In this document: positions 2,055-62,550 of the stretch, one piece after another
How positions within the stretch are numbered: the first letter of the stretch is position 1
Layout: each line of letters opens with the position of its first letter
Assembly (NCBI GenBank): GCA_030141605.1
Contig: JAQGDQ010000988.1
Span: 1-64,000, forward strand
Reading direction: 5' to 3'
DNA: 64,000 nucleotides
Source of the DNA: Tubiluchus corallicola
Taxonomy: Eukaryota > Animalia > Priapulida
The notes under the pieces: model-generated
Told to the model about the DNA's origin: nothing
The model's input: the letters and a program-made list of their open reading frames with translations, nothing else
Databases searched by the model: none
Translations under genes and position numbers: made by a program

Positions 2055-2701
2055 TTAGGTATTTGTAAACACATAACTTAGGTAGTGGTAAAATGCTACT
2101 TAGGTATTTGTAAAGACATAACTTAGGTAGTGGTAAAAACGCTACTTGGGTATTTGTAAACACATAACTTATGTAGTTGTGACAACACTACTTACGCATT
2201 TCTAAAGATGTAACTTAGGTATTTCTAGAGAACTGACTTGGGTATTTCTAGGACATGTTTAGAAATTTGTAACGACAGGTGGCGCCACTGATGCCACTGG
2301 TGTAACCACTGCTCTAGTGTGTCGGTGTCTAACATTAAGGCGCAAATGTTTCATCAATGTGCAATCAAGCATTTCTATACCCACCTGCTACTTAAAAAAG
2401 TTGATGTTAAGTGAGTTTGTTATATGAGATAACGAGGCTCATTAATACATTCACATCTATGCAAATATTGACATTTTGCTTTCCCAAAGTATGGGCATTA
2501 AGTGAGGTTTGTATTGTAAACGGGGGGAGGGGGGAGGGGCGTTACAACGAGGTTTCACTGTATATTATAATCTTGTCACCTAACTGTTCACAATTGATAT
2601 AAGAGATGTGATTAAGAAGGGGGGAAGAGAAATCTGGACCACTTTACATATTTTTTAACCTGCAGTTTGTGATCCGTTTATTGTTTTTTTGTCACACACA
2701 G

Positions 2702-19653
<16,952 letters not shown>

Positions 19654-30317: not shown

Positions 30318-32813
30318 CTAAACGAATGAATCCGATTTCGACTCGGGCTCTGATTCCGACTCGAACTCGTCTGATGAGGACTCAACTACTTCACTGTCAG
30401 TTTGTGATTCAATTGTTCTTTTTCTTCTAACAATATATGCCCCCAGCCCTAACAGAGCAGCTAAAGCGACTCCACCTACAATGCCGACTATTACTAATTT
30501 GTGAGACTTGAAATCCGTTGTTGTTTTTAAAGTGGTGCCTTCCACTGTATTTATTTCGGTCACAGTTGTTGATGCTGCTGTCGACGTTGTTGATGCTGCT
30601 GTCGACGTTGTGGATGCTGCCATCGACGTTGTTGATGCAGCTGTCGACGCTGTTGATGCTGCTGTCGACGTTGTAGATGCTGCTGTCGATGTTGTAGATG
30701 CTGCCGCCGACGCTGTTGATGCTGCCGTCGACGTTGTTGAAGCTGCCGTCGACGTTGCTGAAGCTGCCATCGACGTTGTTGAAGCTGCCGTCGACGTTGG
30801 AGATGCTGCTGTCGACGCTGTTGATGCTGCCATCGATGTTGTTGATATTGTTGTCGTCGTTAACAGTTCATCACAGTCAAAATCATCAGCTGTTGAATCT
30901 TGAACATTTTTAGGCCATACACAATCAACACGAGTGCGATCGTTGAGCGACCAGGGAGGCAGAACAATCCAGGTCAAGTTGCAGTCGCATCTCAGTTGCA
31001 AATCTAAAAAATAGGAAACCATTCAGAAACCGAGATTAGACATCAATCGACAACAAAAGAATATTATTATTTGTCAGCCTACAATAGACACGCTAAAAAT
31101 CTTCACTTTCATTTGACATGACCCAGGTACCAAAATCACTTTTCTGCATTTTGATAAATACATTGTTTTAAGTACTTACCTTCTGAGTGACTTTGGTAAC
31201 TTAAATGTAGACATAGGAATTTCGAATGCGTTTTGGCAACTCAAATGTGACTTAGGTGAGTCAAATGTAGACATAGGATTTTCCAATGTCTTTAGGTAAC
31301 TCAAATGTGACTTAGGTAAGTCAAATGTAGACATAGGAGCTTCGAATGTGTTTAGTAAAGAGCATGTTCAATTTTGCTGTATCCGTATCCGTATAGTTTA
31401 CAAAGACAAATGTCATTACATTCATGAAGGCACTGATACATACCTGTGCACATTATGTATCCTTTGTTTTGGAAACCACGGATGTGTAAAACTGGAAACT
31501 GTGTACGTTCGAATGCCTCTATCTGTCTAGCTAAATTCAGTTCTGTTTACGTATATGTATTTTATATAGGTTTTACATGTCAAATGTTGACCTGTGTTAA
31601 CTCAAATGTAAATTTGGGTAATTCAAATGTGTCTTGGTAACTCAAATGTAGACTTAGGTAGTTCAAATGTGTTAACAAGGGTTTTCAACAAATCTTAATA
31701 GGCCGAAATGAAACGTCTGCTCGCAAATATCAGAGAAAATCTTCTTGTGCAAAATCACGGTCAGAGAATGGCAATATTGGCTCAGTTGGCAGAACAGTCT
31801 GTTAATATCATAACGGCCGCAGATGCAGGCCATTTTGAAATTTGCACTTAACTACCGATTTATTCAAAGTAATTATCTACATTTGACTTACCCAAGTCAC
31901 ATTTGAGTTACCAAAACACATTCGAAATTCCTATGTCTGTATTTGACTTACCTAGGTCACATTTGAACTTTCCTGTGTCTACACTTGAGTTACCTATTTT
32001 GATGTCATTGTGTGCTTAATGTCATTATATTGTACTGAATGCGACAATAATAAACTAAAAAAATCCCTTATATTGCACCTGAATTTTATCAGTTAACTAA
32101 TTAGTGAACTAATAAGAGATTTTCAATTATTTAATTAATTAAATAGTGTCAATTCATAGAAAGAAAAACAACGGCAAAATTATAAACTACAATTGTTTGC
32201 GTTTTCTTTACAGACTTAACTATATTGTTTTCGAGCACTTACCCTGAAGGTAAAATTCCACATTTTCAGCTGCAACACTCTTGTGAATTTTTGGAGGTTT
32301 CAGCCCTTCAATATTGTTATCTGTGATGGTCAAAAGCCCAAAGAATGGATTACCGGAGAAGTCGAACTCCGGAATTTCCGTTAGTTGACCTCCATTGAAG
32401 AAAAGACCCCAGAACTCTGCATTCTTGAAAGCATCTGGATGTATGTAAGAAAGCTTCGTTGATTCAAAAGTAAAATCATTCACGTGACCATTTATTGAAT
32501 TTGGCCCCAAACGTCTCAAGCTACCCCGTCTTATGTGTAAGCTGCCGAGCTGCAATACTTTTCCCTTGAAAAAATTGTCTGGAAGCTCAGTTCCTTTGTA
32601 ATATTCTAAATAAACTTTATATCTCCTATCATTTAGACTTCCCAGATCATTATCTATTTTTGCCAGTTTAACTTTTGTCATGCCTGAGCAAGTTATTTTG
32701 CAGCCTTTATTCCATTTCTCAATCAGACAACCTTTAACAATTTTTTTGCAATAATCTTTAGACAGGCAAGCAGTTATTAAAGATGAGATGCACAACGCAA
32801 ATAGCAAAGCCAT
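30318..32813 (-). CDS. Type I membrane protein, 418 aa: signal peptide, degenerate LRRs, LRRCT, Ser/Thr/Ala mucin-like stalk, TM helix, short acidic tail
   Basis: Exons 32813-32243 and 31003-30318 (phase 1, 1257 nt, open). MALLFALCISSLITACLS signal; LRR-like ELPDNFFKG, LSYIHPDAFKN, LTEIPEFD; LRRCT LRCDCNLTWI..DCVWPKN; (TAASTTS)n from 21-bp repeats; TM LVIVGIVGGVALAALLGLGAYIV followed by RRKR. Confidence 0.85.
31190..32000. repeat. Dispersed element with internal CAAATGTAGACTTAGGT subrepeats in inverted arrangement (relative at about 55370-56015)
   Basis: Shared block GGTTTTACATGTC..AACTCAAATGTAGACTTAGGTAGTTCAAATGTGTTAACAA at about 31570 and 55380. Confidence 0.65.
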
Positions 32814-37137: not shown

Positions 37138-37144
37138 TATAAAA
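37138..37144 (+). promoter_or_regulatory. Candidate TATA box of Cys-rich gene A
   Basis: CGTATAAAA 93 bp upstream of ATG 37231; the paralog has CGTATAAAT 98 bp upstream of its ATG. Confidence 0.55.
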
Positions 37145-37230
37145 CAGCAGGTAAGTAACCATGTAAAGTAATCGTCAAGTAAACAGCATCGTAGTAACAG
37201 CGAGACTTTACTAGTTACATCTCAGACAAC

Positions 37231-39885
37231 ATGAAAGCTTTGCCAGTAATTCTACTTACTGCATTGACCATTTTGGTAAGTAAAATTCTTTTCATATAGT
37301 TAGGCAGAGTTGTGGCTTGTAGGTAAAATGAGTGGGGGTGCTGGTTCAGAAAATTGTTATCCATTGTTTTAGTACCGTGTAAAACGTAACAAACATGTAA
37401 TTTTAATGTTAATATTTGAAGATCAGGTGTTGAACGGCCTCTTTTCTTAATTGGAACTTTCTCATGGAGAGACAACTGTGAAAAATTAAGCTGTTGTAGT
37501 TCACTTACAGTCACAGAACTTATTTCTTGTAGATGCAAGGCGTCCATTATTAAATAATTCATATTTTAAGCGCACATGCTAAGTTTACACTTTATTATAT
37601 CCAAGAATATGACAGTACACGGTAAGCACGTGGCAATTGTTAACCGTGATACTATTACAGTACACGGTAAGCACGTGGCAATTGTTAACCGTGATACTAT
37701 TACAGTGAGTTTGTCCTAAAACAGGTGATAATACGACAAACTCGCGATTTTTCTGCAAATCACATTACATGCCAACTAAGCCTTATAATAAACCGACGCA
37801 ATTTATGACATAAATCTGCAGAACTGAATTTTCTAGGTCTGCATAGTAGTTAGATGGGTGATTTAAAAAAATTGTGGGCATTCCCAAGTAAATAATCGAC
37901 AGTATAATGGCTACCCTTTTTGGTTTTATTAAAGGGAAACCGGATGATTGTGTAAACACGAGTTCAGAATAAAGAATGCTCTAAAATATTGAAAACTACA
38001 ATAGCTTTTTTAAATCAAAGCGTAAATTAAATAGTAATTACCTCGGATACTCAAATTTCGTTAAACTTTCAAAGCTACGCACGGCTCAGTGAATCTTCTG
38101 AGATTGGCAGCGGCGCCATTTTGTCACATTCGCGTGGCCGACAAATAGAAAGCGTTACCATGATCATAACCATGATCATGAACTGCTGTGTTAGTTTCTG
38201 ACGTCATATGATGTAGAGCCCATTTTTATGATATCACGTGTTTAAATTGTAACACTTACGCAAACGTGCTTGCCGTGCAGGAAGATGCCTGCCATTGCAC
38301 AAACTGTGGTTAGTTTCTGACGTAAGCAATAGCTGTGTTCTGTTGCCGTTAATTAACTTTCTAAGATAATTATTAAAATATAAGAAAAAATTGCTAACTT
38401 TTATAGGCAAGAAAATGCATATTTTGGACAGTAAATTAAAATGAGATTGAGTCTAAACAATCGTCCGGTTTTACTTTAAATTTATAAGTAATCGGCTCCA
38501 CATGCACATTAAAGCAGAACTGAATTAAATTGTAGATTCTAAACAAATAGAATGTATAAACCTTTCCTTTAATGAATATACAACCCTAGCTGTTACTCCG
38601 GTCAGAATGTTTTTACAGATGACTTTGTCCGTGACCAAAAAAACCCCCAAAGTTCAAGACCAGATTTAAAATTGCTCTTTTTCATAGAATATTTCAAAAA
38701 TTACTAAAAACGATTCGATAACAAGCGAAAGCTCAACAAATGATTTTTGCAGGTGTTAACAGAAATCATTGACAGTCTCACCGCAGAAGAGCGAAGGGAG
38801 CGAAGACTAGCAAGACGTGTCAAGCGATGTTTCCATAGCTGTGACGATGATGATGATGATGATGATGATGATGCGACGAAGATGACGACGATGACCGTCG
38901 CAGACCAAGACGGGGAAGACGGAGATGTCGAAAGAAGTGTCAGGATGAAGATTTTGTCGTTCAATACGAACGATGCTGTCAGATGATAGATGCGGATGCA
39001 ATAGTCAGCTGTGCACCGGATGACTTTGACTATGAATCTGGATGCTTATGCAACTCAAATGGAGAAAACTGTTTTGAGGTGAGGAAATGCGAGTCGTGAC
39101 TGTAATTTAACATAAGCAGTTGTACAAATTTGTAAGGAAAGAAAAATGTTCTCACTTCTCGTGCACCTGCACTTGCAACATTGTGCACCTGCATTCATAG
39201 CTCTAAATAATTGCACTTGCAGTTTGATGCACATGCACTTGCAACATTGTGCGCCTGCATTCATAACTCTAAATAATTGCACTTGCAGTTTGATGCACAT
39301 GCACTTGCAACATTGTGCGCCTGCATTCATAACTCTAAATACTTCTACTAGCAGTTTCACGTGCCTGCATTCCTCACTTTGAAAACTTCCAAATCTTTAT
39401 TAAAAATCGATTTAAAAAATTAACGAATTTTATTTTCTTGCGTAATCTTTTTTGCTTTTTTTAGATACATAGATTTTTAGATAATTTAACATAAGCAGTT
39501 GTACAAATTTGTAAGGAAAAAAAATGTTCTCACTTCTCGTGCACCTGCACTTGCAACATTGTGCACCTGCATTCATAACTCTAAATACCAGCACTTGCAG
39601 TTTCACGTGCCTGCATTCCTCACTTTGAAAACTTCCAAATCCTGATTAAAAATCGATTTAAAAAATTAATGAATTTTATTTTCTTGCGTAATCTTTTTTG
39701 CTTTTTTTTAGATACGCGCCAGACAAGAAGATGGCACGAGATGTCAATGTCTAGATGCCTCAAACGAACTGCTATTATTAAACGGAGAACCGCTAGATTA
39801 CCCAGAATTCTGTTTCGATAGCGACAAGTGCAGTTGCAGCTATGCAAACCTAGTGATAAACACAACGTGCATCGAGGACATGTAA
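37231..39885 (+). CDS. Secreted cysteine-rich preproprotein A (about 181 aa, 16 Cys); 1-nt frameshift at about 38873 (null allele, young pseudogene or consensus error)
   Basis: Exons 37231-37275 (MKALPVILLTALTIL), 38753-39078 (VLTEIIDSLTAEERRERRLARRVKRCFHSC-D10-[frameshift]-DEDDDDDRRRPRRGRRRCRKKCQDEDFVVQYERCCQMIDADAIVSCAPDDFDYESGCLCNSNGENCFE), 39712-39885 (IRARQEDGTRCQCLDASNELLLLNGEPLDYPEFCFDSDKCSCSYANLVINTTCIEDM*). Canonical phase-0 splice sites; homologous to gene B. Confidence 0.78.
37933..38475. mobile_element. Kolobok-type non-autonomous element K2 in intron 1 of gene A
   Basis: TTAA on both sides (37929, 38476); homologous to 6199-6867. Confidence 0.75.
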
Positions 39886-40079
39886 GAAATGGCCGACAAT
39901 AGCCAAGTTGAAGTTTGAAAAATCTTAAATATACTAGTACCAGTAGAGTAGAGATGATGCATTTTTGAAAAAAGTTAATACATGAAGCTTTCACAGCTCT
40001 GACGAAACTATGGGTCCTAGCTAAGTGCAACTATAGTTTAATCTCAGACTTTGTGTTGGCATCCAGTGTCCTACCTAAC

Positions 40080-40255
40080 AAATGATCAGAAGTTTTAGAA
40101 GAAGATGAGTGGCACTTCATTATCCCATTCCTACAAAATCTTCCTATTCCAAATCCGGCATGAAGGAAAGATGAGCATACCATTCTGTTCTAACATAGGA
40201 GTACCTCAAGGAGATTGTTTAAGTCCCGTCCTTTTCACTTTTTATCTTGCTGTGG
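40080..40255 (+). mobile_element. Non-LTR reverse transcriptase fragment
   Basis: SNIGVPQGDCLSPVLFTFYLA (RT motif B). Confidence 0.75.
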
Positions 40256-40270
40256 GTATGACTGATGATG

Positions 40271-40392
<122 letters not shown>

Positions 40393-40781
40393 AACGTGTA
40401 TACAATTCATCAACAATGTGCCCAATTTTAACCACGATTTAATGCTTTATTTATCACTGAAATTATGAAATGTATAAATTTACAGTAGACATGTAAGAGA
40501 CGTTAAAAAGGGCGTCCTCTAATTAATCGGAAACGGAAGCGTTTACAACACACCACAGGCAGTTACTGAGTGCAGCTTTTATATAAGTGTCACATAGCGG
40601 CGCTACTCCAGTGAGCAGGGAAGGGTATTACATAAATGCAGTTGTGCGGTCTTCTTGAATATAGGCATTTATATGCAAATACATGTAATTATTAATGACC
40701 ACGTGGAATACACCACAAGTAATAGTTTGATTCCATTTTTTAAACTGATTAATGTCGCTTGACTAGGCTTTTAACAAAGCC

Positions 40782-40823
<42 letters not shown>

Positions 40824-41809
40824 CATTACTTGTGTGCAGCCCATTGTATTATTTTAAATGTTCATAGATACTGTTTACATACATATTACGTATGTACGTT
40901 ATACACTTTTTGAGCAAGTAGTTGACGTTGTACTTAAATACAAGTTAAAACAGACAATTGACGATACTTCTTGTTTCATTAATGTCCATTCTTATTAATG
41001 TTTTATTAATTAAATTAACATGCAGGTTTATAAGTTCTCAGTATGATCACATTAATGTGTTCCAATTATTATTGAACTTTAATGTAATTATATTTTAAAT
41101 CAAGTACATTATTTCACATGTGCTTGCATAGCAAAATCGTCCATAAATCGGCAATTAAGTTTTTCTAGTTATTTACATATCCTGAATCTCTATTTCACGA
41201 GGATCATTTTGATACCAAGTTCATTGCTCTATGTTATTTCATTTGCAATAAACTATTGAAATATACATGTATTTTCGCCAATGAAGGCATCTTCAGACAT
41301 CAGCATCAGTACTTAGCAACTATTTTTCTCTATCACATACACAAAAAATAGCCGAATATTACGAGATGATGATCGTTTATCAGTGATCGTTTGTGAAATG
41401 TATTTCTTTAATAATTTAGAAAATCTTTAGAAGTAGTTTATGTTTTTATAATTGTAAATGTGTACTTTATTTAGCTGTCTTTGTAACAAGTGCTAGCGAG
41501 TATTAGTTTTATTACATTATAGAAGAATCTTGAGTTCAGCAGTAAGCTGTTAAATTGACAATTCTGTATAATTATTTAAATAAATATGTTTATAAAAATA
41601 AATTTTGGTATGCACAGTCGATTTTCTTCTTCTAGCATTAAAGCCAGGCCTTAGTCTTAGGTCGATGTCAGGGAACTAAAGTGAAGAGTTTTTTTTCGAG
41701 TGGTGTGGTCGTTGTAGTGAGGCAATAAAGTAATCTAAACTTAAATTGACCACAAAAAAGATTAACGTCACAGCTCTGCGATTATGCCTGCTGAGTCCTG
41801 CTATAAGCA

Positions 41810-41970
41810 AGTCAACTACTATATCAATGCAGTATGCTGATGATGTGGCATGGATTACAAGAAACAAAGAAGAAGTAGATGAAATAAAAAAACTCAATTG
41901 AGGAGGAACTGAACAGAATGGATTTTGTTGTAAACAAAAATAAAACTCAAGAGTTTCACATAACACGCCA
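41810..41970 (+). mobile_element. Non-LTR reverse transcriptase fragment (YADD), frameshifted
   Basis: MQYADDVAWITRNKEEVDEIKK / IEEELNRMDFVVNKNKTQEFHIT. Confidence 0.72.
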
Positions 41971-41974
41971 ATGT

Positions 41975-43482
41975 TTATCGATTGTGAATGCTGTTGAGAA
42001 ACCGAGTGAGATATTTCCTTGAAGGTAGACGATTTACAATAAGGACTGACCAACGTGGACTCCTTGCCCAACCACGAACTAAGAAAAATAATCGTCGCCT
42101 GTGCAGGTGGAGTTTGATTTTGTCAGAATTTAGTTGTACCATAGAAGGCATTAGTGGCAATGAAAATACCATAGCTGACGCCTTGTCACGATTAAATGTC
42201 TAGGTGTAAAATAACCATTTTTGATTGATATGAGAGAATTAAGGGTATATTTAGCTTATCATATTTTATTGTTTTGGCATAGTTTCCATATTTTTGGAAA
42301 CAGAATTCAATGTGTTGTTGTCTAATTGAGCATAATTTGAAGATATTAAATTTTTTAAAGTTACTGGAGCTGAGTTAAGCTGCTAAGTGATAGTTAAATA
42401 AAATCTTCTTTTGACAAAGCAAGATTGTATATTGGATGTACTAAAATTAGTTTTGTAATATGTGCAGAAGTACCAAAAGAGTTTGTGTTATATTTAATGG
42501 AAATGGTTGTTTAAATCAGTTGTTTGTCATAAAAGTGTTCTGATGTCATAAAAGTGTTCTGATACTACATTTGAGTATTACTGTATTCATTGTTGCTATT
42601 CATTGATTTGTATTGATCTATTGAATATTTCTATGGCATGGAAGTTAGTAGTCTCAATGTGCATTTCGTAGCTACTCAACTTTTACAGAACCGGGGCTCT
42701 GTGATGGTCCAGTATGGTAATGTAGGGAATCACTAGCCTAACAGCCGGGCACATTATTTGTTTACATTCACGAGCTAGGCTAATGATCTTCTTCCCAGCT
42801 TTTGCCTATGCGGAGTCGCCGTTGTGAATGAGTCTTCTCCACGCATTCCTGTTGTTGACCATCTCTTCATTTATGTTCTTCACTCTAAGGTCTCCATTAA
42901 TACATTCAATACATCTCAGCTTGGGTCATCCTCTTCTTCTATTTCCCAGCACTTCCATTTCCATGACCTCCCTTCCCAAATGATCTTCACAACGAGTTAG
43001 GCTGATGATGAAGAGTTAAAATTCACCTTTCTTTTGCATTTTTAATTTAATTTGATGTTCTACAAAATCGCATTTTGATCTCATAAATTACTACCCCTGG
43101 TAGCTAGGTCACTTGGGTGGGTACACGAGTATTCCGTCGTAGAGGAAGATCTTTACCTTAAAGTTAAATCACTGAAGCCAGACGTTCACGTGAGCAGTGT
43201 GACCTGGATTTTTTTTACCTGCCGATTCTATGCCACGTAGTTGTAGAGAGTGGTTTCCTTGTGTTAAACGGAGGTACGTCTACACGTTAAGTACCTTCCG
43301 TCTTGTATCGTGTCTCAGTTTGATGTCAAGACATGTGATGTGGTCCCCGAGTAGTGGTTCAAGTTTCACAGACCAAAAGAGACGTTAGCAGATCAAGAAA
43401 GACGTAACGGTATACTTCTACTTATGTTATTACTCTCGTAAATCACCAACTGCTAATTGCCATTTGTTGGGTTAACACCACA
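41975..43482 (+). mobile_element. 3' remnant of a Ty3/Gypsy LTR retrotransposon: RNase H end, 3' UTR, probable 3' LTR (about 42700-43482)
   Basis: RYFLEGRRFTIRTDQRGLL..RRLCRWSLILSEFSCTIEGISGNENTIADALSRL* is the Gypsy RNase H C-terminus. A GGGG tract precedes TGTGATGG at 42700, with a complementary-type end ..CACCACA at 43482; LTR limits are tentative. Confidence 0.7.
42788..42991 (-). mobile_element. Short 5'-truncated RTE LINE insertion with 18-bp TSD
   Basis: Homologous to 18860-19025; flanked by ACGAGCTAGGCTAATGAT (42770) and ACGAGTTAGGCTGATGAT (42992). Confidence 0.85.
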
Positions 43483-43669
43483 GGGATGGTAGACTGTAAA
43501 GTGGTCAGTTTCACTTGAGGAGTGTGATGACTGTTTTCATTGCCGTATGGGGATCCTGTTATCTTCACGTAGACGTTAAATTGTTTACCATGTTGGGGTC
43601 GTCTGTGCTACACTGTCATGCAAGAAATCTGTAAGCTGTGACTGTCAGTGTGGACTGTTGTACCGCAGT

Positions 43670-44015
43670 CAGGGGCGGAACTAGGGGGGAGCGAGGGCGG
43701 CGCCCCCCCTGCAAAATCGGACAAATAATTTTTTTTTGCAGTGAAAATTGCAGTTCGCATGTAATCATTTTCAATATGAATTAAAATTAGGTAAAAAATG
43801 TTTGGTAGTTCAAATAACGTTAGGTTAACTGAGAGTTAATTTTCTCATTATTGTTCTGTCCGCTATGCCGTCCTATATACACTAATTATAGGCCTGCATG
43901 CAGTATAAAAGGGGTTAAAATTGGCTTAACCATTATTTAACCACTTCGGATACCATGCCCCCCCCCCAGAAAATTTTTGCGCCCCCCCTGCTTGCCACAT
44001 CTATTTCCGGCCCTG
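43670..44015. mobile_element. hAT-type MITE
   Basis: CAGGGGCGGAACTAG...CTATTTCCGGCCCTG ends; imperfect 8-bp TSD ACCGCAGT/CCGCCAGT. Confidence 0.65.
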
Positions 44016-45383
44016 CCGCCAGTGAACACTCAGCAAAACCCAGGTAGATCACCAGTATTCTGGGGAAAGGGTTTTCCTTTTTTTGTATATTGATGCTGAT
44101 TGTCATTTTTTTGAATATTTGGAATCTTATTAAATTTGTTGTTACATGCCTTTACTTGTTTATGGAGAGTTGGATAAAATGTCGTTAACCAATGAAAAGA
44201 AAACAACTCACGTATTATTTAGGAAAACTGCGAACAAAGTATTTATTCCCATGAACATTTTATGAACATGTCTTAAAATTAGCATAAATAATTCGCATAC
44301 ACCTTTCGGCACACGCTACGTCAAAAGGTGGTTTTCGGGTACCTGTGACCCTTCTAACTCCAACCATCACAGCCACACTGCCGTAGTTCTCGACAAAAGG
44401 TATCCTTGGAACAACACGTCCATCCTTGACCGGTTGACCGTGAGGCGTGCCGGTCAAACACGACTTAGCTAACATTTGTCCACTGAGTGTTTACGATACG
44501 GCGGGCGCACGATTGTTTAACACTCGTGACCACTTTTCCATACACGGATACAAGTACGGGCGGGCGTGTGGCATGTTTACCGAAAGGGAAAGCCCTTCTG
44601 CTAACAGAAAACAACTCTATCCAGTAGAAAACAAACAATTTGATGTAATGAGTCACCTCGCGTAAACGTACCGTGTGACCAAAACTTGGCACCGGCACCA
44701 AACTCATCTCTGGATGTAACCAATCCTCTTGTTTGTATGCAGCTGAAAAATAAACAAGAAATTAAATACTTCCACATCGGAGGAGGTAAAGGAAATAGCC
44801 AAGTGGTGTTATGAAGATTAATTAAGCAACAAAAGTTAAGCAATGCCGAGACAGGACTGTGAATGGATGCGTGACGCAAGGTTTAATACCCACTTTGGGA
44901 GGTCTCACTCATTAGGTCTATTCTTGATGTTTATCTTGTTCACAATAGTAGAACAGCTGCTTATATGTGCACATTTTTTTCAACGAGCTTCTTATCTATG
45001 GAATTTTCTGCCAGGTAATCGTTTCCCTGACAGCTACCACTATGCTGGACTCAAGCAGCACATCAACAAATAGCTCTATCCTTAGTAAATAAGTTATATA
45101 ACTTCTATCTCTCTGGATCTACATTCATAATTTACATTTTCACTTTTTAACCGTGACACCTGTTGCCCTAATCTTGCTTCGTATAAAAGAAAGCCGAAAA
45201 AGTTCATTTGTGTACCTAGGTGTGAAACATGCATGAGTCGGTAACGCAGTAACTTTACAAACCAAACATTTTATAACTAAACACGCTTGTTAGTAAACTA
45301 CACTCAAGTGAGCTGGTCCACAATTTTTAAGCAAACAACAGCCAGGTAAATAACAGTTATTTGTAAACAGTAGGCCTCTCGCG

Positions 45384-45391
45384 TATAAATA
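45384..45391 (+). promoter_or_regulatory. Candidate TATA box of Cys-rich gene B
   Basis: TATAAATA 98 bp upstream of ATG 45482. Confidence 0.55.
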
Positions 45392-45481
45392 AGCTCGAAT
45401 TTTTGGCAAAGTTGCGAACGAATATCGTGGCGCTAAACGACACCATCGATTTTAGAAACTGTTTAAGAAACCGAAAAAAAG

Positions 45482-48400
45482 ATGAAGTTGCTTATGTTTG
45501 TTGCCATGGTAACTATCAACAATCAGTTTAATATTACATGTTAATACTTTGTACTGTAGAGTAATGAAAAGTACCGTATTTTCCCGTGTATAAGAGACCC
45601 TTTTTTGCTCAGAATTTTCACTTTAAAAATAGGGGGTCTCTTATACATGGGAGTAAGTCTTTTCAATAAGATGCATAAATTGTGACACTAATGATTTTAA
45701 AGAAATAAGTGCTCTACAACTGTTTTGCGTGTCGCGTTCGACTATGAAGCGGTTGTAAGCATCGTGACACAGGCATTATCTCCTCGTTTTCTCTTTTCCT
45801 GTTACAGGTTTGCAGGTACGCACTTTAATATATACCAGTACTCTTTTTCTACAACACATTAACTGGTTTTATTTTGTTTTCAGTACCGCACTGAGTTGAA
45901 AAAAGTTGTACTTTACCCTCTAAAAATGTCCGTCTGAAAAAACTTTTTTCCAGAATTTTTGCCTAAAAATTGAAGGGGTCTCTTATACACAAGGGTCTCT
46001 TATACACGGGAAAATACGGTAATCTTCTATAATACAACTTCATGTAATATATAGTATCATGATATACATTATGTAATAGGGTCTTTTATAAGGCATGACA
46101 TATGTCATTTTACCCATAGTGCATATGTGATAACATGCAATATAAGGTGTAGCTTAAAATGGTATTGAAGTTATGAATTGATTAGTTCAGCTAAGCGTAG
46201 CAATACGATTATGTTTTCAGATGATGATGATGACGGCAGTGACGATCGTTAATGGTCACTACTACTGGTATCGTAATTACTGTCCAGGAAGCAGCACTGA
46301 CTGCTCCACACTTACGTGTACAGATGCGAACGGCACCGCCTGCGATAACCTCACCGCAGATGATGATTGGGACACCGTTGGACCCTGTGTGTGTCCCAAT
46401 GGTTCTAACAGCTACTATTGTGATGACTGTTATCAGGTAAAAGTGCATTATTTACACTTCTAAAAAGTATCACTTTTACCTTTTCCTAGAATAGCGTCTT
46501 TTCATAATTTTTTATATAAGTTGCTATAAACGAGGCTGACGGTCTGTTGTGTTTTGTTTCACTCGGAAGGCTCGTAGAGAAAACCAGAAAACACTTCATC
46601 AAATTAAACTAGTTTATTATGTCAGAATTCTGGTTGCTGTTGTGTTTTGTTTCTCTCGGAAAGCTCGTAGAGAAAACCAGAAAACACGCCATTAAATATT
46701 ATTACTTTATTGAGCGAGAATTCTTACACAAAGAGGAAGGAACTTTGAAATGATTATACTAAACGTGAAAATCTGGAAAACATTCAAGTAAGTATAACAG
46801 AATAAGTATAAGTCCGTGTTAGATCTGTGTGCGATGTGCGATCCCGTGTCGGCAGCCTGATTCGCCTTATATAGCGCGCTGGAGAAACTTCTCGAAGAAA
46901 TGTTCGAGAACAATCCAGACGCTAAGGCGGTCATCCCGACGGAACATTCTACGATGTTCCATGCACTTCTACTTGACGTCAGCGATCTCCATAACACGGT
47001 CGGGGTAACGGCTGCAGTTACCGTACGCACAGCAAGCAGTGATCACTATAACAGTTAAGCGCTATTAAAAACTAGAAAGAAAGAACTGTCTTTCTTATTT
47101 TCTTACAGGAAGACAGAATGATTTTCCATATACTACGCCATTTTCAAGTCTGATAAAAACGAAACATTTTAACACAATTAATACTGCAAAAGCACTTCTG
47201 ATAATTAAATAATAGATTAATATCTTAATTAACAACGGGCGAGTGCAACTATTGATGACATCACAAACTAACATGATTTTCAACAGGAAAAATATTCCAC
47301 GAGTATGTTTCACGTGTTTGCAAAAGCGAACGTTGAAATACAGTGCTACTGTAAGATATTCAGTGTGTGGTACTAAAGTTAGGCAAGTTTTAAGATAAAA
47401 ATTCAAATTTCAAATTTACCCCTGCGCTCATGCGTGAGTTGTCGAATGTGTGTAGTTCGTCACAAACTAACACTACTGAACTCAGAAGTCCAGCACCTGT
47501 TTTTGTGCAACGCGTTTCCGAAATGCCGGCATTGGTGCTTATTTAACTAGTGAATGGCAAAATGCATGTGACAGTGAAGAACTAGTGGCACGAATGTGAA
47601 ATTGTGTTTGTGTGGTAACATACAGTGAAGAACTAGTAGCACGAATGTGAAATTGCGTTTGTGTGGTAATATACAGTGAAGAACTAGTGGCACGAATGTG
47701 AAATTGTGTTTGTGTGGTAATATACAGTGAAGAACTAGTAGCACGAATGTGAAATTGTGTTTGTGTGGTAATATACAGTGAAGAACTAGTAGCACGAATG
47801 TGAAATTGTGTTTGTGTGGTAATATACAGTGAAGAACTAGTAGCGCAAATGTGAAATTGTGTTTGTGTGGTAATATACAGTGAAGAACTAGTAGCACGAA
47901 TGTGAAATTGTGTTTGTGTGGTAATATACAGTGAAGAACTAGTAGCACGAATGTGAAATTGTGTTTGTGTGGTAATATACAGTGAAGAACTAGTAGCACG
48001 AATGTGAAATTGTGTTTGTGTGGTAATATACAGTGAAGAACTAGTAGCACGAATGTGAAATTGTGTTTGTATGATAATAATTCTTTCACGCAAGTCATTT
48101 TTGAAAAACTAGTATGTTTTCTTTCAAGGTTCTAAATAAGTAATTATCTACTCTACCAAAAATTGAAGGGAGAAATACTATTTTTTCAGCAATGACTTAT
48201 GTGAAAGATTCATTACCACACAAACACAGTTTCATGTCCACATCACTAGTTCTTCGCTGTTACATGCATTTCGCCATTCGCTAGTTAGATGGGAACTAGC
48301 GCCTGCATTTCGGAAACGTGATGGACAAAAAGCAGGTGCTGTACCTCGCAGTTCAGAGGCATTTAGTTATGTCGTATTATAAGCACGTTCAAAAGCTTCT

Positions 48401-49005
48401 GCGTGAGGACAGCAGTAAACATGAAATTTGAATTTTACACTTTAAATTTGTCGAGTTTTTGTATAACGCATTAAATGTTGTACAACAGAGCTTAAATTTT
48501 TGCTTTCGGAAACACGTGCAACACCTGTGCTGTTGAAAATTACGTTCATTTATGATGTCATCACTAGTTGGGCTCGCATGCCGTTAATTTAGTTTTTAAC
48601 CTATTATTTAATTATCAGAAATGCTATAAATGCTTACAGGTGTTAAAATGAGTACTTTTTACTGTACTTCAAAATGGTGTAGGATAGAAAAACTATTCTG
48701 TTTTCCTTTAAATTTCTCCAACAAATGCAGTTTCATAATATTTCATATCATCATCGAGTAGTTTTATATGCTTGTTTATCACAAATTCAGTTCTTATTCT
48801 TCTAAACAAAATTTTACATTCAACTGTCCACATGCTTTCATATTTTTCTGCATTTCAGATACTTACACGGAACACCACCTGCACGTGCGAATGCACAAAT
48901 CGGTACGGATACACGTTCACATTGAGAAGCTCCAGCTATTGTGTGGAGTCTAATAGATGTGACTGTAGTTTTGCAACATATAAGCAGCAGGCCTGCGATC
49001 CATAG
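45482..49005 (+). CDS. Secreted cysteine-rich protein B (129 aa, 15 Cys), intact
   Basis: Exons 45482-45508, 46221-46436, 48859-49005 (390 nt, phase 0/0): MKLLMFVAMMMMMTAVTIVNG-HYYWYRNYCPGSSTDCSTLTCTDANGTACDNLTADDDWDTVGPCVCPNGSNSYYCDDCYQILTRNTTCTCECTNRYGYTFTLRSSSYCVESNRCDCSFATYKQQACDP*; four N-x-S/T sequons. Confidence 0.83.
45574..46019. mobile_element. Tc1/mariner (pogo/Tc2-like) MITE in intron 1 of gene B
   Basis: Perfect TIR CCGTATTTTCCCGTGTATAAGAGACCC / GGGTCTCTTATACACGGGAAAATACGG, TA on both sides. Confidence 0.9.
47100..48710. mobile_element. Inverted pair of Kolobok-type elements (family K4) in intron 2 of gene B
   Basis: 47100-48140(-) and 48150-48710(+) are both homologous to 52675-53396; right end TTTTCCTTTAA. 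Confidence 0.68.
47570..48070. repeat. 51-bp minisatellite, about 10 units, expanded from inside the K4 element
   Basis: Unit ACAGTGAAGAACTAGTAGCACGAATGTGAAATTGTGTTTGTGTGGTAATAT; single-copy (reverse) at about 48213 and 52785. Confidence 0.93.
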
Positions 49006-56900: not shown

Positions 56901-59900
56901 GAAGTTCAATATTTTACATTGCGAGATCCTTCCTGCCCACGACGACACTCAGATTCACGGATTGTGTTCAAACGTACCGACGATGTTGCTGTACATTTGC
57001 CTGTTAAGTTTACAGCTTAATGAGCCGCATGTATTGCACACATGTGCATCCGACGCACCAGACACCTGCAATCCATAAAATCCGTATTCACGAGAAACTC
57101 CCACACCACGTGTGGGAAAAAGAATTGTTGACAAAATAATATTTTGTATGCACTGCTCACCATACCATGCAATAAATATAATAGACAAACAATAACGTGT
57201 AATGCAATATAATAGACAAACAGTAGCATGCAATGCAATATAATAGACAAACAATACAATGCAATGCAATATAATAGACAAACAATAGCATGCAATATAA
57301 TAGACAAACAATAGCATGCAATACAATATAATAGACAAACAATAGCATGCAATACAATATAATAGACAAACAATAGCATGCAATACAATATAATAGACAA
57401 ACAATAGCATGCAATACAATATAATAGACAAACAATAGCATGCAATACAATATAATAGACAAACAATAGCGTGCAATACAATATAATAGACAAACAATAG
57501 CATGCAATACAATATAATAGACAAACAATACAATGCAATACAATAGACAAACAATAGCATGCAATACAATATAATAGACAAACAATAGCATGCAATACAA
57601 TATAATAGACAAACAATACAATGCAATACAATAGACAAACAATAGCATGCAATACAATATAATAGACAAACAATAGCATGCAATGCAATATAATAGACAA
57701 ACAATAGCATGCAATGCAATATAATAGACAAACAATAGCATGCAATACAATAGACAAACAATAGCATGCAATACAATATAATAGACAAACAATAGCATGC
57801 AATGCAATATAATAGACAAACAATAGCATGCAATACAATATAATAGACAAACAATAGCATGCAATACAATATAATAGACAAACAATAGCATGCAATACAA
57901 TATAATAGACAAACAATAGCATGCAATACAATAGACAAACAATAGCATGCAATACAATATAATAGACAAACAATAGCATGCAATGCAATATAATAGACAA
58001 ACAATAGCATGCAATACAATATAATAGACAAACAATAGCATGCAATACAATATAATAGACAAACAATAGCATGCAATACAATATAATAGACAAACAGTAG
58101 CATGCAATACAATATAATAGACAAACAATAGCATGCAATACAATATAATAGACAAACAATAGCATGCAATACAATATAATAGACAAACAATAGCATGCAA
58201 TACAATATAATAGACAAACAATACAATGCAATACAATAGACAAACAATACCATGTAATACAATATAATGCTGTAATCTGTATTTTTCATTCAGGCGTCCA
58301 TTACACGTTCTTTTGTGTTAAACATTGTTTCATCCTGTTAGCATTGTTTCATCCTGTTAACATTGTTTCATCCTGTTAGCATTGTTTCATCCTGTTAGCA
58401 TTGTTTTATCCTGTTTGATCACACTGCGTGTGAAGTGATAAAGCCGGCTTAATTCGTCCTCATTTTCCGGCATTTTTACGTTCTTACTTGAACGTGTTCA
58501 CACCTTGTGTGTGTGTGGCATCTGTTCAGCTGCAGGGCAGACAGACATACATACAAACGCGTAAAGGATACAGTAGCTCTTCATAAAATAAGCATTACCC
58601 TTCATTGTGCTGGTCGACATGCCGTCATTTATTGTAGGACTATTAGTTCTGTCGTATAATCTTTATTGTACAAGTTGTACACATTTAGAGGTATGATAAA
58701 ACACTTGAAGATATTATACGTATTGACAAGTCATAGACTGTTGTAGGCAATAGTGTTAAACTAGAAAAACAAGTTTTACAAAAGTTAGTTTGAAAAAAAG
58801 TGAATAAAAGAGGTAAAATATACATATTTACATAGCGTGAAATTAAAATTGAATTTCAGAATATAACCTCAACGACGCATGCGCACGAAACATTTGAAAA
58901 TGACGTTAACATATGTATTGCTACAGCGAGCCTTTTTCATTTCAATTATTTTATGGAATTTACATCAGACTGCTGGTTATATATATAGACATAATTATTA
59001 TTTTGTCATTTTTGTAAAGGGGCCTCATAATTTCTGAGTAGTGTGCTCTTAAAGAAAGACCGGACGATTGTTTAGACTCAATCTCATTTTAATTTACTGT
59101 CCAAAATATACATTTTGTTGTCAATAAAAGTTAACAATTGTTCCTTATATTTGAATAATTAGCTTAGAAAGTTAATTAACAGCAACCGAGCACAGCTATT
59201 GCTTGCGTCACAAACTAACCTTTTACTTGTTTGAGAAAGGAAATACCTTGTCCCATTTTTTGTACGATGCTATTTTAACTTGATTGTTCCGTTTTAATTT
59301 GTTACTACTTTCCATACCTAAGATTTGGGTGACTGCAGATTGACACGTTGTTTGATTAAGCACATTAAGTGTTAAGCTTTTTAGCCAGTTTTACATGCTT
59401 CATTTGGGCTTAATATTAGGAATACCGTTTTTCAGGGTTCATTTTTAAGTGATGAAATTTCCAGAATAGATTTGATTTCTTGGGTCTGATTTTGCTTTTA
59501 AGGAAAGGGCAATTCATTTAGCATGCTTGCCTTATTTTATTGTTGTTGGCATCCTTCTGTCTCGGAAGACAATGGAATGTGCGCCAAGAGAGTCAGTTAT
59601 TGATCACATTGATGGAGCGTCGACTGTGGCTGAGCAGTCCGATCCTTGAACCACTGGAGTGGCCTCTCCAGGGCGCACACCTGGGCAAGGTGTATGAGAT
59701 CCTGAGTTGTCCAGACAACAGGAACCCCCTCTCTTCCTCCCTGGTGTAGTCCAAAGGAAAGCTTAGCAATACGTTTGGCACCAGGTTGGCTGCAGGAGCT
59801 GACGGAGTCAGTGAGCATGCTGCACTGGTCCGCCTTCGGGGCTCCACTCCTGATTTGGAAGGTTTACTCCTCTACACATGGCCGTTGGGTCATTTGACCT

Positions 59901-62550
59901 CCTCCGCCCTCTAACCATTGGCTGCTTGTGCAGCTCCTCCACCTAGTGTCGAGATACAGTGTGGGCATCTCGCAGGCCTACAGCACCTGGTATTCGTAGG
60001 CGGTCACCCATCCAAGTACTAACCAGTCTCTACGTTTCTTAACGTCGGCATTTTCAATGTGATATGGCCGTTTATTAATATCACTTAAAGAACAAGAAAA
60101 CCCACCACTTACATAAAGCTTAAAAAGTTCGCCTTGAAATTTTATACCACTTACTAACTGCTTTTTGCGTGAAGGGCTTGCGTCGGCAGTAATGCAGTAT
60201 AAAACTTGTAAATTTAAACTTCCGCGATGACTGTTAGGCGCAGCCATTTTGATGATAGGTCATTTGAAGCAAGTTTAGATAACATTTAGGTAAGTGGCCA
60301 GAATCACTTCGGCAAGTGAATGTCACCCATTCATTCAGCGTCTAACTTTCGCATTGCTTAACTCTTGTCATCAGACAATTGTCACACACACACTATGACT
60401 GCTTGATCATTCCCCTCCTATATTAAGTTACAATGCGCCAGTGTGCACTCAAGTGCATGGAATGAGATTGACGCCTTAAATAGTATCGTGCTTTAATTCG
60501 TGAAAAGGCAGGTGCCAAATTAAACAGCATTGGGTCTGGAAAGTATGTGGATGAGTGAAAGAAGACGATTATTTTGTCATTTTTGTAAAGGGGCCTCATA
60601 ATTTCTGAGTAGTGTGCTCTTAAAGAAAGACCGGACGATTGTTTAGACTCAATCTCATTTTAATTTACTGTCCAAAATATAGATTTTGTTGTCAATAAAA
60701 GTTAACGATTGTTCCTTATATTTGAATAATTAGCTTAGAAAGTTAATTAACAGCAACCGAGCACAGCTATTGCTTGCGTCACAAACTAACCTTTTACTTG
60801 TTTGAGAAAGGAAATACCTTGTCCCATTTTTTGTACGATGCTATTTTAACTTGATTGTTCCGTTTTAATTTGTTACTACTTTCCATACCTAAGATTTGGG
60901 TGACTGCAGATTGACACGTTGTTTGATTAAGCACATTAAGTGTTAAGCTTTTAAGCCAGTTTTACATGCTTCATTTGGGCTTAATATTAGGAATACCGTT
61001 TTTCAGGGTTCATTTTTAAGTGATGAAATTTCCAGAATAGATTTGATTTCTTGGGTCTGATTTTGCTTTTAAGGAAAGGGCAATTCATTTAGCATGCTTG
61101 CCTTATTTTATTGTTGTTGGCATCCTTCTGTCTCGGAAGACAATGGAATGTGCGCCAAGAGAGTCAGTTATTGATCACATTGATGGAGCGTCGACTGTGG
61201 CTGAGCAGTCCGATCCTTGAACCACTGGAGTGGCCTCTCCAGGGCGCACACCTGGGCAAGGTGTATGAGATCCTGAGTTGTCCAGACAACAGGAACCCCC
61301 TCTCTTCCTCCCTGGTGTAGTCCAAAGGAAAGCTTAGCGATACGTTTGGCACCAGGTTGGCTGCAGGAGCTGCCGGAGTCAGTGAGCATGCTGCACTGGT
61401 CCGCCTTCGGGGCTCCACTCCTGATTTGGAAGGTTTACTCCTCTACACATGGCCGTCGGGTCACTTGACCTCCTCCGCCCTCTAGCCGTTGGCTGCTTGT
61501 GCAGCTCCTCCGCCTAGTGTCGAGATACAGTGTGGGCATCCCGCAAGCCTACAGCACCTGGCATTCCTAGGCGGTCACCCATCCAAGTACTTACCAGTCT
61601 CTACGTTGCTTAACTTCGGGGATCAGACGAGAACCGGCATTTTCAACGTGATATGGCCGTTTATTAATATCACTTAAAGAACAAGAAAACCCACCACTTA
61701 CAAAAAGTTTAAAAAATTCGCCTTGAAATTTTATACCACTTACTAACTGCTTTTTGCGTGAAGGGCTTGCGTCGGCAGTAATGCAGTATAAAACTTGTAA
61801 ATTTAAACTTCCGCGATGACTGTTAGGCGCAGCCATTTTGTTGATAGGTCATTTGAAGCAAGTTTAGATAACATTTAGGTAAGTGGCCAGAATCACTTCG
61901 GCAAGTGAATGTCACCCATTCATTCAGCGTCTAACTTTCGCATTGCTTAACTCTTGTCATCAGACAATTGTCACACACACACTATGACTGCTTGATCATT
62001 CCCCTCCTATATTAAGTTACAATGCGCCAGTGTGCACTCAAGTGCATGGAATGAGATTGACGCCTTAAATAGTATCGTGCTTTAATTCGTGAAAAGGCAG
62101 GTGCCAAATTAAACAGCATTGGGTCTGGAAAGTATGTGGATGAGTGAAAGAAGACGATTAAAGGCCATATAATGTGAAGATAAGGTTCTTATAAGAATAT
62201 TACACAGCAATTACTAGGTAATGTGTGATACCATGCTGTGTTATACGTAACTTACAGGGTGGCCCAAAAAGTTTCTCCTTATGTCCATGTCGTTAAGGCC
62301 TTAAGGCTGTCTTAATGATTACGTTTTCCCAAAAAAAACAGGTTATTCTGACTTGTTTAAAAGCCCAATTAAAGTTTTTTTTCATATTAACTTTTCTTAA
62401 TCAGTTACTAGCATTTTGTACTACATGATTCTGTTTCTTCTTTTTTCAGCTCCGAGACCAAACAATGTGCAATCACTGCTCTCCACAGCTTGCGTGGATA
62501 GAGGCGGATACCGCAACTCTAGTGGAAAACTGTTTTATCCCAGAGGACAG
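50952..62550 (+). CDS. WLS: Wntless (Evi/GPR177), coding exons 1-2; continues beyond the window
   Basis: Exon 50952-51057 MAGTILENLSNRKLLYLTGILVSLQIAYFLVGGLI(A), phase 1, and exon 62450-62550 PRPNNVQSLLSTACVDRGGYRNSSGKLFYPRGQ. Matches the Wntless N-terminus (MAGAIIENMSTKKL..FLVGGLIAP.P..KCVD..WFVPWG). Confidence 0.93.
51349..51855 (+). mobile_element. hAT (Charlie-like) MITE, longest copy
   Basis: Perfect 15-bp TIR CAGGGGTGTGCAAAT/ATTTGCACACCCCTG; perfect TSD GTCTAAAT. Confidence 0.93.
52112..52670. mobile_element. Kolobok-type non-autonomous element K3 with duplicated right end
   Basis: TTAA|AGGAAAAGTCAA start; ATGACTTGTCCTTTCCT end occurs twice (52598, 52670). Confidence 0.6.
52675..53396 (+). 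mobile_element. Kolobok-type non-autonomous element K4
   Basis: TTAA|AGGAATATGAAATTTT...AAAAATCATCCTGCCTTCCT|TTGA; homologs at 47100-48710 and a fragment near 29510. Confidence 0.68.
53747..54581 (+). repeat. A-B-A duplication: 273-bp direct repeats (53747-54019, 54309-54581) around a 292-bp copy of 50381-50672
   Basis: Matches read directly; junction overlaps of 1 and 2 nt. Confidence 0.93.
57170..58270. repeat. 31-bp satellite (AATATAATAGACAAACAATAGCATGCAATAC) with shorter variants
   Basis: Read directly; explains the three long minus-strand ORFs. Confidence 0.96.
59540..60071 (-). mobile_element. 5S rRNA-headed SINE with RTE-derived body and tail (copy 1, 18-bp deletion in the 5S head)
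   Basis: 5S-like head 60071-59974; the tail encodes SRIGLLSHSRR* followed by GGCGCACATTCCATTGTCTTCCGAGACAGAAGGATGCC(AAC)n, an RTE 3' end. Confidence 0.82.
61111..61660 (-). mobile_element. 5S rRNA-headed SINE with RTE-derived body and tail (copy 2, near-full 5S head 61660-61545)
   Basis: As copy 1; keeps AAGTTAAGCA (A-box region) and TTGGATGGGTGACC (C-box region). Confidence 0.85.

What the first reader, a model, noticed from the sequence alone, without database searches (positions are those of the whole stretch)
37138..49005. Hidden tandem pair of homologous secreted cysteine-rich genes of no recognisable family
Seen: two 3-exon genes about 8 kb apart that the ORF track does not assemble. 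They share a TATA box 93/98 bp before the ATG, a tiny phase-0 signal-peptide exon, and an intron at the same place (C-aromatic-E/Q | I). They also share a Cys scaffold: C..DD(F/W)D...G..C(L/V)C..NG..C(F/Y)(E/Q)I..R....C(Q/E)C....(F/Y)C.(D/E)S(D/N)(K/R)C.CS(Y/F)A.....C. Sequence outside the cysteines is very divergent. I cannot match the spacing to EGF, Kazal, Kunitz, TIL, ShK, WAP, VWC or defensin patterns. Inference: a lineage-specific disulfide-rich secreted family, such as toxin/defence effectors, adhesive or biomineral matrix proteins, or ligands. A conserved Cys frame with divergent loops is typical of effector families.
Basis: partly seen in the sequence, partly recalled or inferred. Interest (0 to 1): 0.85.

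Follow-up and report, generated by a model that had tools for sequence, protein, structure and literature searches.

The report
Undescribed twelve-cysteine secreted protein family
Two neighbouring three-exon genes of an invertebrate encode proteins predicted to be secreted that share a twelve-cysteine frame with one unnamed protein from public sequencing data and match no catalogued family, so they likely form a small undescribed family, most likely of defence or surface-binding proteins, although one gene is broken by a frameshift as assembled and no function has been tested.

Summary
One contig of a public run reads in frame across it, so it is likely an assembly error or a null haplotype. 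Gene B (129 aa) is intact. A full HMMER scan of 1.84 billion proteins with the exon-3 profile found one true relative, P0001 (178 aa, unnamed, E 1e-9). It has a signal peptide, a Gly/Arg arm and the same 12 cysteines, with 52 of 104 residues identical to A and no break at the exon 2/3 junction. B is a distant member: 0 of 5000 Cys-fixed shuffles reach its score, only just, and its exons alone are not significant. Pfam, NCBIfam, PDB sequences and the ESM Atlas gave nothing; the fold models were too weak to interpret. A neighbouring LRR gene also found no homologue, so the lineage is thinly sampled. The scan's earlier notes hold no look-alike. Verdict: a real, undescribed secreted disulfide-rich family of a common kind; function untested.

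The parts
37138..37143 (+). TATA box of gene A (predicted)
   Evidence: TATAAA 93 bases before the ATG; 41 TATAAA on the + strand of the window, so weak alone
37231..37275 (+). Gene A coding exon 1, first 15 residues of the predicted signal peptide, phase 0
   Evidence: ATG, hydrophobic run, donor in top 0.7% of GTs
38753..39078 (+). Gene A exon 2: end of signal peptide, Arg/Asp arm with four furin-type R-x-R/K-R sites, first half of the Cys core; 326 nt, not a multiple of three
   Evidence: downstream frame matches P0001 residues 75-119
38846..38874 (+). Asp-codon trinucleotide repeat, with the frame break of gene A at its 3' end (38873-38874)
   Evidence: one X1 contig (195 nt, depth 5.55) reads in frame across the place
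39712..39885 (+). Gene A exon 3, second half of the Cys core (6 Cys) and stop
   Evidence: 54% identical to P0001 residues 118-171
45384..45389 (+). TATA box of gene B (predicted)
   Evidence: TATAAA 98 bases before the ATG
45482..45508 (+). Gene B coding exon 1, 9 residues of the predicted signal peptide, phase 0
46221..46436 (+). Gene B exon 2: end of signal peptide, aromatic N-terminus, 8 Cys, three N-glycosylation sequons
48859..49005 (+). Gene B exon 3: 7 Cys, one sequon, stop

Best explanation
Genes A and B are likely old tandem paralogues of a small undescribed family of proteins predicted to be secreted, whose acidic 12-cysteine core would form about six disulfide bonds and likely serves as a stable frame for variable surface loops that bind a target outside the cell, most likely in innate defence at the body surface, gut or body fluid. 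Shown: the exon anatomy, the shared cysteine spacing (C-x11/12-C-x7/10-C-x8/14-CxC-x4/11-C, intron, x11/12-CxC-x15/21-C-x5-CxC-x9/10-C), acidic cores (pI 4.05-4.37) and an exchangeable N-terminal arm (Arg/Asp blocks in A, Gly/Arg/Pro in P0001, none in B). Inferred: signal cleavage, disulfide pairing, trimming of A's arm at furin-type sites, and a mode of action like the two-part crustacean defence proteins (penaeidins, stylicins, type II crustins), in which a low-complexity arm sits before a Cys-rich domain; the cationic arm would contact microbial surfaces and the core would bind or agglutinate. Gene A is inferred to be intact in at least some haplotypes; as assembled it would give a 92-residue product without the core.
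For: P0001 is a full-length natural relative: E 1.1e-9 among 1.84e9 proteins, hydrophobic N-terminus, all 12 core Cys aligned with A and 40 non-Cys identities. It matches the part of A exon 2 that was not in the query (score 95; 0 of 3000 shuffles of either kind) and runs on across the exon 2/3 junction. B against the A+P0001 profile scores 11.7 bits, reached by 0 of 5000 Cys-fixed shuffles (maximum 11.6); B against P0001, 1 of 3000. 18 columns are invariant in all three, 10 of them Cys. The P0001 arm has 13 K/R, 6 D/E and 16 Gly in 52 residues. The arm-plus-Cys-domain layout of penaeidins, stylicins and crustins is from passages of PMC9409781 and PMC9680087; anionic pieces that neutralise cationic peptides are described in a passage of PMC10608444. 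An X1 contig over A exon 3 keeps all six Cys while four other residues differ.
Against: No RNA evidence for either gene was obtained, and nothing tests function. The cores are acidic, whereas penaeidins are cationic (pI 9.3-9.8); B has no cationic arm and carries four N-glycosylation sequons. The arms of A and P0001 are not detectably homologous (score 24; 1446 of 3000 Cys-fixed shuffles reach it). The exon-3 differences in X1 (pN 0.038, pS 0.029, six changes) are too few to show selection and fit neutrality. A profile built without B ranks B's two exons only 6th and 7th of 2065 window segments (E 0.78 and 2.1), so B's membership rests on the joined sequence, intron position and adjacency. Gene A is frameshifted as assembled, and the in-frame evidence is one contig with 21 letters upstream of the break.
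Confidence: 0.38

Rival explanations
1. The same family, but structural: secreted cuticle, egg-coat, mucus or adhesive proteins whose cores cross-link through spare cysteines and whose Asp- and Arg-rich arms bind calcium or polyanions.
For: Acidic cores, an Asp-rich run in A with only one Glu among about 15 acidic residues, a Gly/Arg-rich arm in P0001, an odd Cys count (15) and four sequons in B, and extra C-x3-C pairs in A's arm.
Against: No long repetitive region in B or in the cores; no internal repeat between the two core halves (145, 352 and 829 of 1000 Cys-fixed shuffles reach the scores).
Confidence: 0.28
2. A degenerate tandem of EGF-like or laminin-EGF-like modules, or another growth-factor-like fold, released from a pro-arm by furin and acting as a signalling ligand, possibly for the LRR-transmembrane protein encoded head-to-head with gene A.
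For: B exon 2 fits a loose EGF spacing (8 of 1000 shuffles), and exon 3 of A, B and P0001 fits a loosened six-Cys laminin-EGF spacing; P0001 residues 87-132 align weakly to an LDL-receptor fragment (3gcw_E, E 9.6); A has four furin-type sites.
Against: No Pfam EGF or laminin hit for any exon or for whole P0001. The EGF CxC-x2-G-aromatic tail, the 8-Cys laminin pattern and CxGxC are absent in 3 of 3 proteins. The loosened pattern was written after seeing the sequences, and 17 family patterns were tried on 3 proteins. P0001 and B have no furin-type site. E 9.6 is chance level.
Confidence: 0.18
3. A predatory or deterrent toxin family made in pharynx or skin glands.
For: Small, secreted, disulfide-rich and tandemly duplicated, with divergent loops; A exon 2 and B exon 2 together align weakly to a squash knottin (6msu_C, E 0.25).
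Against: No knottin, ShKT, Kunitz or defensin spacing in 3 of 3 proteins and no Pfam hit; acidic cores; only two copies in this 64-kb window.
Confidence: 0.07
4. Gene A is a recent pseudogene or null allele, and B is an unrelated Cys-rich gene whose similarity comes from composition.
For: The frame break in the assembly; B exons alone are not significant; pN about equal to pS in exon 3; no canonical AATAAA or ATTAAA within 1 kb of A's stop.
Against: An in-frame X1 contig; no stop elsewhere in A's exons; the joined B beats Cys-fixed shuffles against A (2 of 5000), P0001 (1 of 3000) and the profile (0 of 5000); same intron position and phase.
Confidence: 0.09

Closest known systems
P0001 (unnamed 178-aa protein, Logan contig of 1469 nt, singleton cluster)
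   Same: Signal peptide, low-complexity arm and the same 12-Cys core; 52 of 104 aligned residues identical to A.
   Different: Gly/Arg/Pro arm unrelated to A's Arg/Asp arm; no furin-type site; no extra Cys in the mature part; organism not known to me.
Type II crustins (PMC9680087, passages read)
   Same: Signal peptide, Gly-rich arm (P0001) and a C-terminal region with 12 conserved Cys.
   Different: Crustins are defined by a WAP four-disulfide core; no WAP profile hit or spacing here.
Stylicins (PMC9409781, passages read)
   Same: Anionic, with a variable N-terminal part before a C-terminal region of many conserved Cys.
   Different: Stylicins have 13 conserved Cys and a Pro-rich N-terminus; here 12 core Cys, and the arm is Arg/Asp, Gly/Arg or absent. 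Stylicin spacing was not compared.
Penaeidins (PMC9409781, passages read)
   Same: Arg-rich N-terminal domain before a better conserved Cys-rich domain.
   Different: Penaeidins are 4.7-7.2 kDa, cationic, with six Cys; these cores are about 100 residues, acidic, with 12 Cys.
EGF-like and laminin-type EGF modules (spacings recalled)
   Same: CxC followed by 8-10 residues and a Cys; six Cys in the exon-3 half.
   Different: No profile hit, no conserved Gly-aromatic tail, longer loops, no seventh and eighth Cys.

Membership tests
Crustin | C-terminal WAP four-disulfide core (PMC9680087) | tested here: not met
   No Pfam WAP hit for the exons or whole P0001; recalled WAP spacing absent in 3 of 3
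Crustin | 12 conserved Cys | tested here: met
   Count only: 12 core Cys in A and P0001; the arrangement differs
Penaeidin | Cationic, 4.7-7.2 kDa, six Cys (PMC9409781) | tested here: not met
   Core pI 4.05-4.37; 12-16 Cys in 129-181 residues
Stylicin | Anionic | tested here: met
Stylicin | Pro-rich N-terminus and 13 conserved C-terminal Cys | tested here: not met
   12 shared core Cys; arms Arg/Asp-rich, Gly/Arg-rich or absent
Stylicin | Stylicin cysteine spacing and sequence profile | not tested
   No stylicin sequence was fetched; the passage read gives no spacing
EGF-like / laminin EGF | Match to curated profiles | tested here: not met
   Pfam: no EGF or laminin family for 4 Cys-rich exon pieces (E up to 5) or P0001 (E up to 1)
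EGF-like / laminin EGF | Six-Cys spacing | tested here: inconclusive
   Loose EGF spacing in B only; laminin-like six-Cys spacing in 3 of 3 but loosened after seeing the data; 8-Cys pattern in 0 of 3
EGF-like / laminin EGF | EGF fold and 1-3, 2-4, 5-6 disulfides | tested here: inconclusive
   Models at mean pLDDT 59.5 and 51.8 are too weak to judge
Cystine-knot growth factors | CxGxC and a distal CxC (recalled) | tested here: not met
   CxGxC absent in 3 of 3; some members lack it, so this lowers but does not exclude
Kunitz, Kazal, TIL, ShKT, VWC, ICK and squash knottins, CSab defensin, prokineticin, thyroglobulin-1, peritrophin-A | Family Cys spacing (recalled) and Pfam profile | tested here: not met
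   0 of 3 proteins match any of these patterns; no Pfam hits
Secreted host-defence protein (works-like claim) | Secretion, induction by microbes, antimicrobial or binding activity | not testable with these tools
   Only a hydrophobic N-terminus is shown; SignalP was not available

The most novel reading that the evidence does not exclude
The 12-Cys core is a disulfide scaffold with a fold not yet in the PDB, used by a little-studied worm lineage (priapulid-like, according to unchecked notes on this genome) as a modular defence platform with swappable cationic, zwitterionic or absent arms, and encoded head-to-head with an LRR receptor that may work in the same pathway.
Probability: 0.15. Interest if true: 0.65.

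Novelty: new variant of a known kind. Interest (0 to 1): 0.35.

Why it matters
If right, it defines a cysteine framework that none of the libraries searched holds, with three members and a usable profile, in an animal group for which my paper searches found no description of secreted defence or matrix proteins. New disulfide scaffolds are starting points for antimicrobial, adhesive and binding-protein work. The limit is that orphan secreted Cys-rich families are common in thinly sampled invertebrates (general knowledge), and nothing here yet points to an unusual mechanism.

Full report
Observation. The window is animal-type DNA (37% GC) with introns and many repeats. Gene A has TATAAA at 37138, coding exon 1 at 37231-37275, exon 2 at 38753-39078 and exon 3 at 39712-39885. 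Gene B has TATAAA at 45384 and exons at 45482-45508, 46221-46436 and 48859-49005. All eight splice sites are GT/AG and all introns are phase 0. By simple scores of my own, the acceptors rank in the top 0.05-5.5% of 3700 AGs and the donors in the top 0.7-1.6% of 3769 GTs; exons 2 and 3 are 44-49% GC against 33-36% in introns. B gives an open 129-residue protein with 15 Cys and a hydrophobic N-terminus of about 21 residues.

A correction. Exon 2 of gene A is 326 nt long. The frame entered from exon 1 passes an Arg-rich stretch and an Asp-codon repeat and stops at 38984-38986; the Cys-rich half lies in another frame. The break is at the 3' end of the repeat, 38873-38874. An in-frame acceptor at 38944 would bypass it but is weak (63% of AGs score as well). 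In public run X1, which is likely DNA because a contig runs unspliced from intron 2 into exon 3, one 195-nt contig at depth 5.55 lies on 38874-39029 with one silent difference and carries the Asp repeat in the frame of the Cys-rich half. Only 21 letters lie upstream of the break in that contig, and X1 may or may not be the source sample. So an in-frame version likely exists, and the window holds an assembly error or a null haplotype. I read A with X at the break.

Are A and B homologous? The joined Cys domains score 86 (BLOSUM62, local): 0 of 5000 full shuffles and 2 of 5000 shuffles with B's cysteines fixed reach it. Exon by exon the signal is weak (81 and 101 of 5000 Cys-fixed shuffles). There is no DNA similarity between the exons, so the duplication is likely old.

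An independent member. Word-seeded searches found nothing. A full HMMER scan of 1,835,955,588 representatives with the exon-3 profile gave 2 hits. P0002 is a translated tandem repeat and was dropped. P0001 (E 1.1e-9) is a 178-residue unnamed protein from one 1469-nt Logan contig, a singleton cluster without a Pfam family. It has a hydrophobic N-terminus, a 52-residue arm with 16 Gly and 13 Lys/Arg, and a core whose 12 Cys align with A's; 52 of 104 aligned residues are identical, 40 of them not Cys. It also matches the downstream frame of A exon 2, which was not in the query (score 95; 0 of 3000 shuffles), and continues across the predicted exon 2/3 junction. That supports the junction and the frame; P0001 is likely from a spliced transcript (inference). 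B scores 80 against P0001 (1 of 3000 Cys-fixed shuffles) and 11.7 bits against the A+P0001 profile (0 of 5000, maximum 11.6). Against this, the same kind of profile ranks B's separate exons only 6th and 7th of 2065 window segments, with E 0.78 and 2.1. I take B as a distant member at roughly 90%. Core identities are A-P0001 47 of 102, B-P0001 30 of 88 and A-B 24 of 92. Whether P0001 is a paralogue in this species or an orthologue in a relative is not known. No third copy lies in the window, and no whole genome was held.

Anatomy. The family is signal peptide, variable arm, acidic 12-Cys core of about 100 residues (pI 4.05-4.37), with three CxC motifs and an intron after the sixth Cys. A's arm alternates Arg and Asp blocks, has two extra C-x3-C units and four furin-type sites; P0001's arm is Gly/Arg/Pro-rich without such a site; B has no arm but an aromatic N-terminus, three extra Cys and four N-glycosylation sequons. 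The arms of A and P0001 are not detectably related. An X1 contig over A exon 3 keeps all six Cys and changes four other residues (five non-silent and one silent base; pN 0.038, pS 0.029), too few to show selection.

Comparison with known families. Pfam gave nothing for the four Cys-rich exon pieces beyond one chance hit (E 0.16) and nothing for whole P0001; NCBIfam gave one chance hit; PDB sequence searches gave only E 0.25 or worse; the ESM Atlas gave no usable hit for two exon queries. Of 17 recalled cysteine-spacing patterns tried on three proteins, only a loose EGF pattern (B only; 8 of 1000 shuffles) and a six-Cys laminin-EGF pattern that I had loosened after seeing the data matched. The two AlphaFold models are weak (mean pLDDT 59.5 and 51.8) and their fold searches cannot be interpreted. 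By layout the closest described proteins are the two-part crustacean defence proteins: penaeidins (Pro/Arg-rich part, six Cys, cationic) and stylicins (anionic, 13 Cys), from passages of PMC9409781, and crustins (Gly-rich part, 12-Cys signature with a WAP domain), from passages of PMC9680087. Membership fails for each on a defining feature; the resemblance is of layout only. A passage of PMC10608444 describes anionic pro-pieces that neutralise cationic peptides, a possible reading of A's Asp blocks.

Mechanism. I commit to a secreted, disulfide-stabilised binding protein in innate defence (0.38). Rivals are a structural cuticle, egg-coat or adhesive role (0.28), a growth-factor-like ligand (0.18), a toxin (0.07), and A dead with B unrelated (0.09). 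Shown are the gene anatomy, the homology to P0001, and the charge and cysteine pattern. Secretion, disulfides, processing and every statement on function are inferred. No RNA evidence was obtained.

Novelty and its limit. Seven paper searches listed no description of such a family (listings only, no supplements opened), and the scan's own notes hold no look-alike. But the neighbouring LRR gene also found no homologue in the word search, so the lack of hits partly reflects thin sampling of this lineage. Unchecked notes on this genome call the animal priapulid-like; I did not test that. The result is a real, undescribed family of a common kind.

Noticed in passing
window 30321-32813, minus strand: A likely two-exon gene for an LRR protein with a Cys cap, a Thr/Ser/Ala stalk (21-bp tandem repeat at 30565-30846), one transmembrane helix and an acidic tail; it lies head-to-head with gene A, about 4.4 kb away. 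Pfam LRR_8 only at E 0.027; no homologue in a word search.
   Followed up: partly
window 2600-14850, plus strand: Exons that look like the 3' part of an apolipophorin/vitellogenin-type gene; VWD domain at E 4.3e-9.
   Followed up: partly
window 39103-39225 and 39482-39603; 39464: A duplication inside intron 2 of gene A (123 bp, 96%), with a second copy of the exon-3 acceptor ending at 39464 that would lead to a stop after nine codons.
   Followed up: partly
window 39576-39880, run X1 record 8: The X1 contig over A exon 3 has 17 differences in 305 bases at depth 19.1, whereas the exon-2 contig has 1 in 156 at depth 5.55; it may come from further A-like paralogues rather than an allele. The places of its four gaps were not shown.
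   Followed up: partly
window 37927-38479: A very high-copy interspersed element in intron 1 of gene A (summed contig depth in the tens of thousands in X1), with copies at 6193-6871, 59049-59220 and 60620-60791.
   Followed up: no
window 38786-38952: A's arm looks like two units of Arg block, C-x3-C, acidic block (43% identical over 23 residues, E 0.03-0.11 within the window), one on each side of the frame break.
   Followed up: partly
window 38-567 and 5037-5566: The same tandem arrays in inverted orientation, suggesting an inverted duplication or element ends around an apolipophorin-like exon.
   Followed up: no
window 45809-45816: An 8-nt stretch in intron 1 of gene B between a pyrimidine-rich AG and a GT (seen); as a micro-exon it would shift the frame, so it is likely not used.
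   Followed up: no
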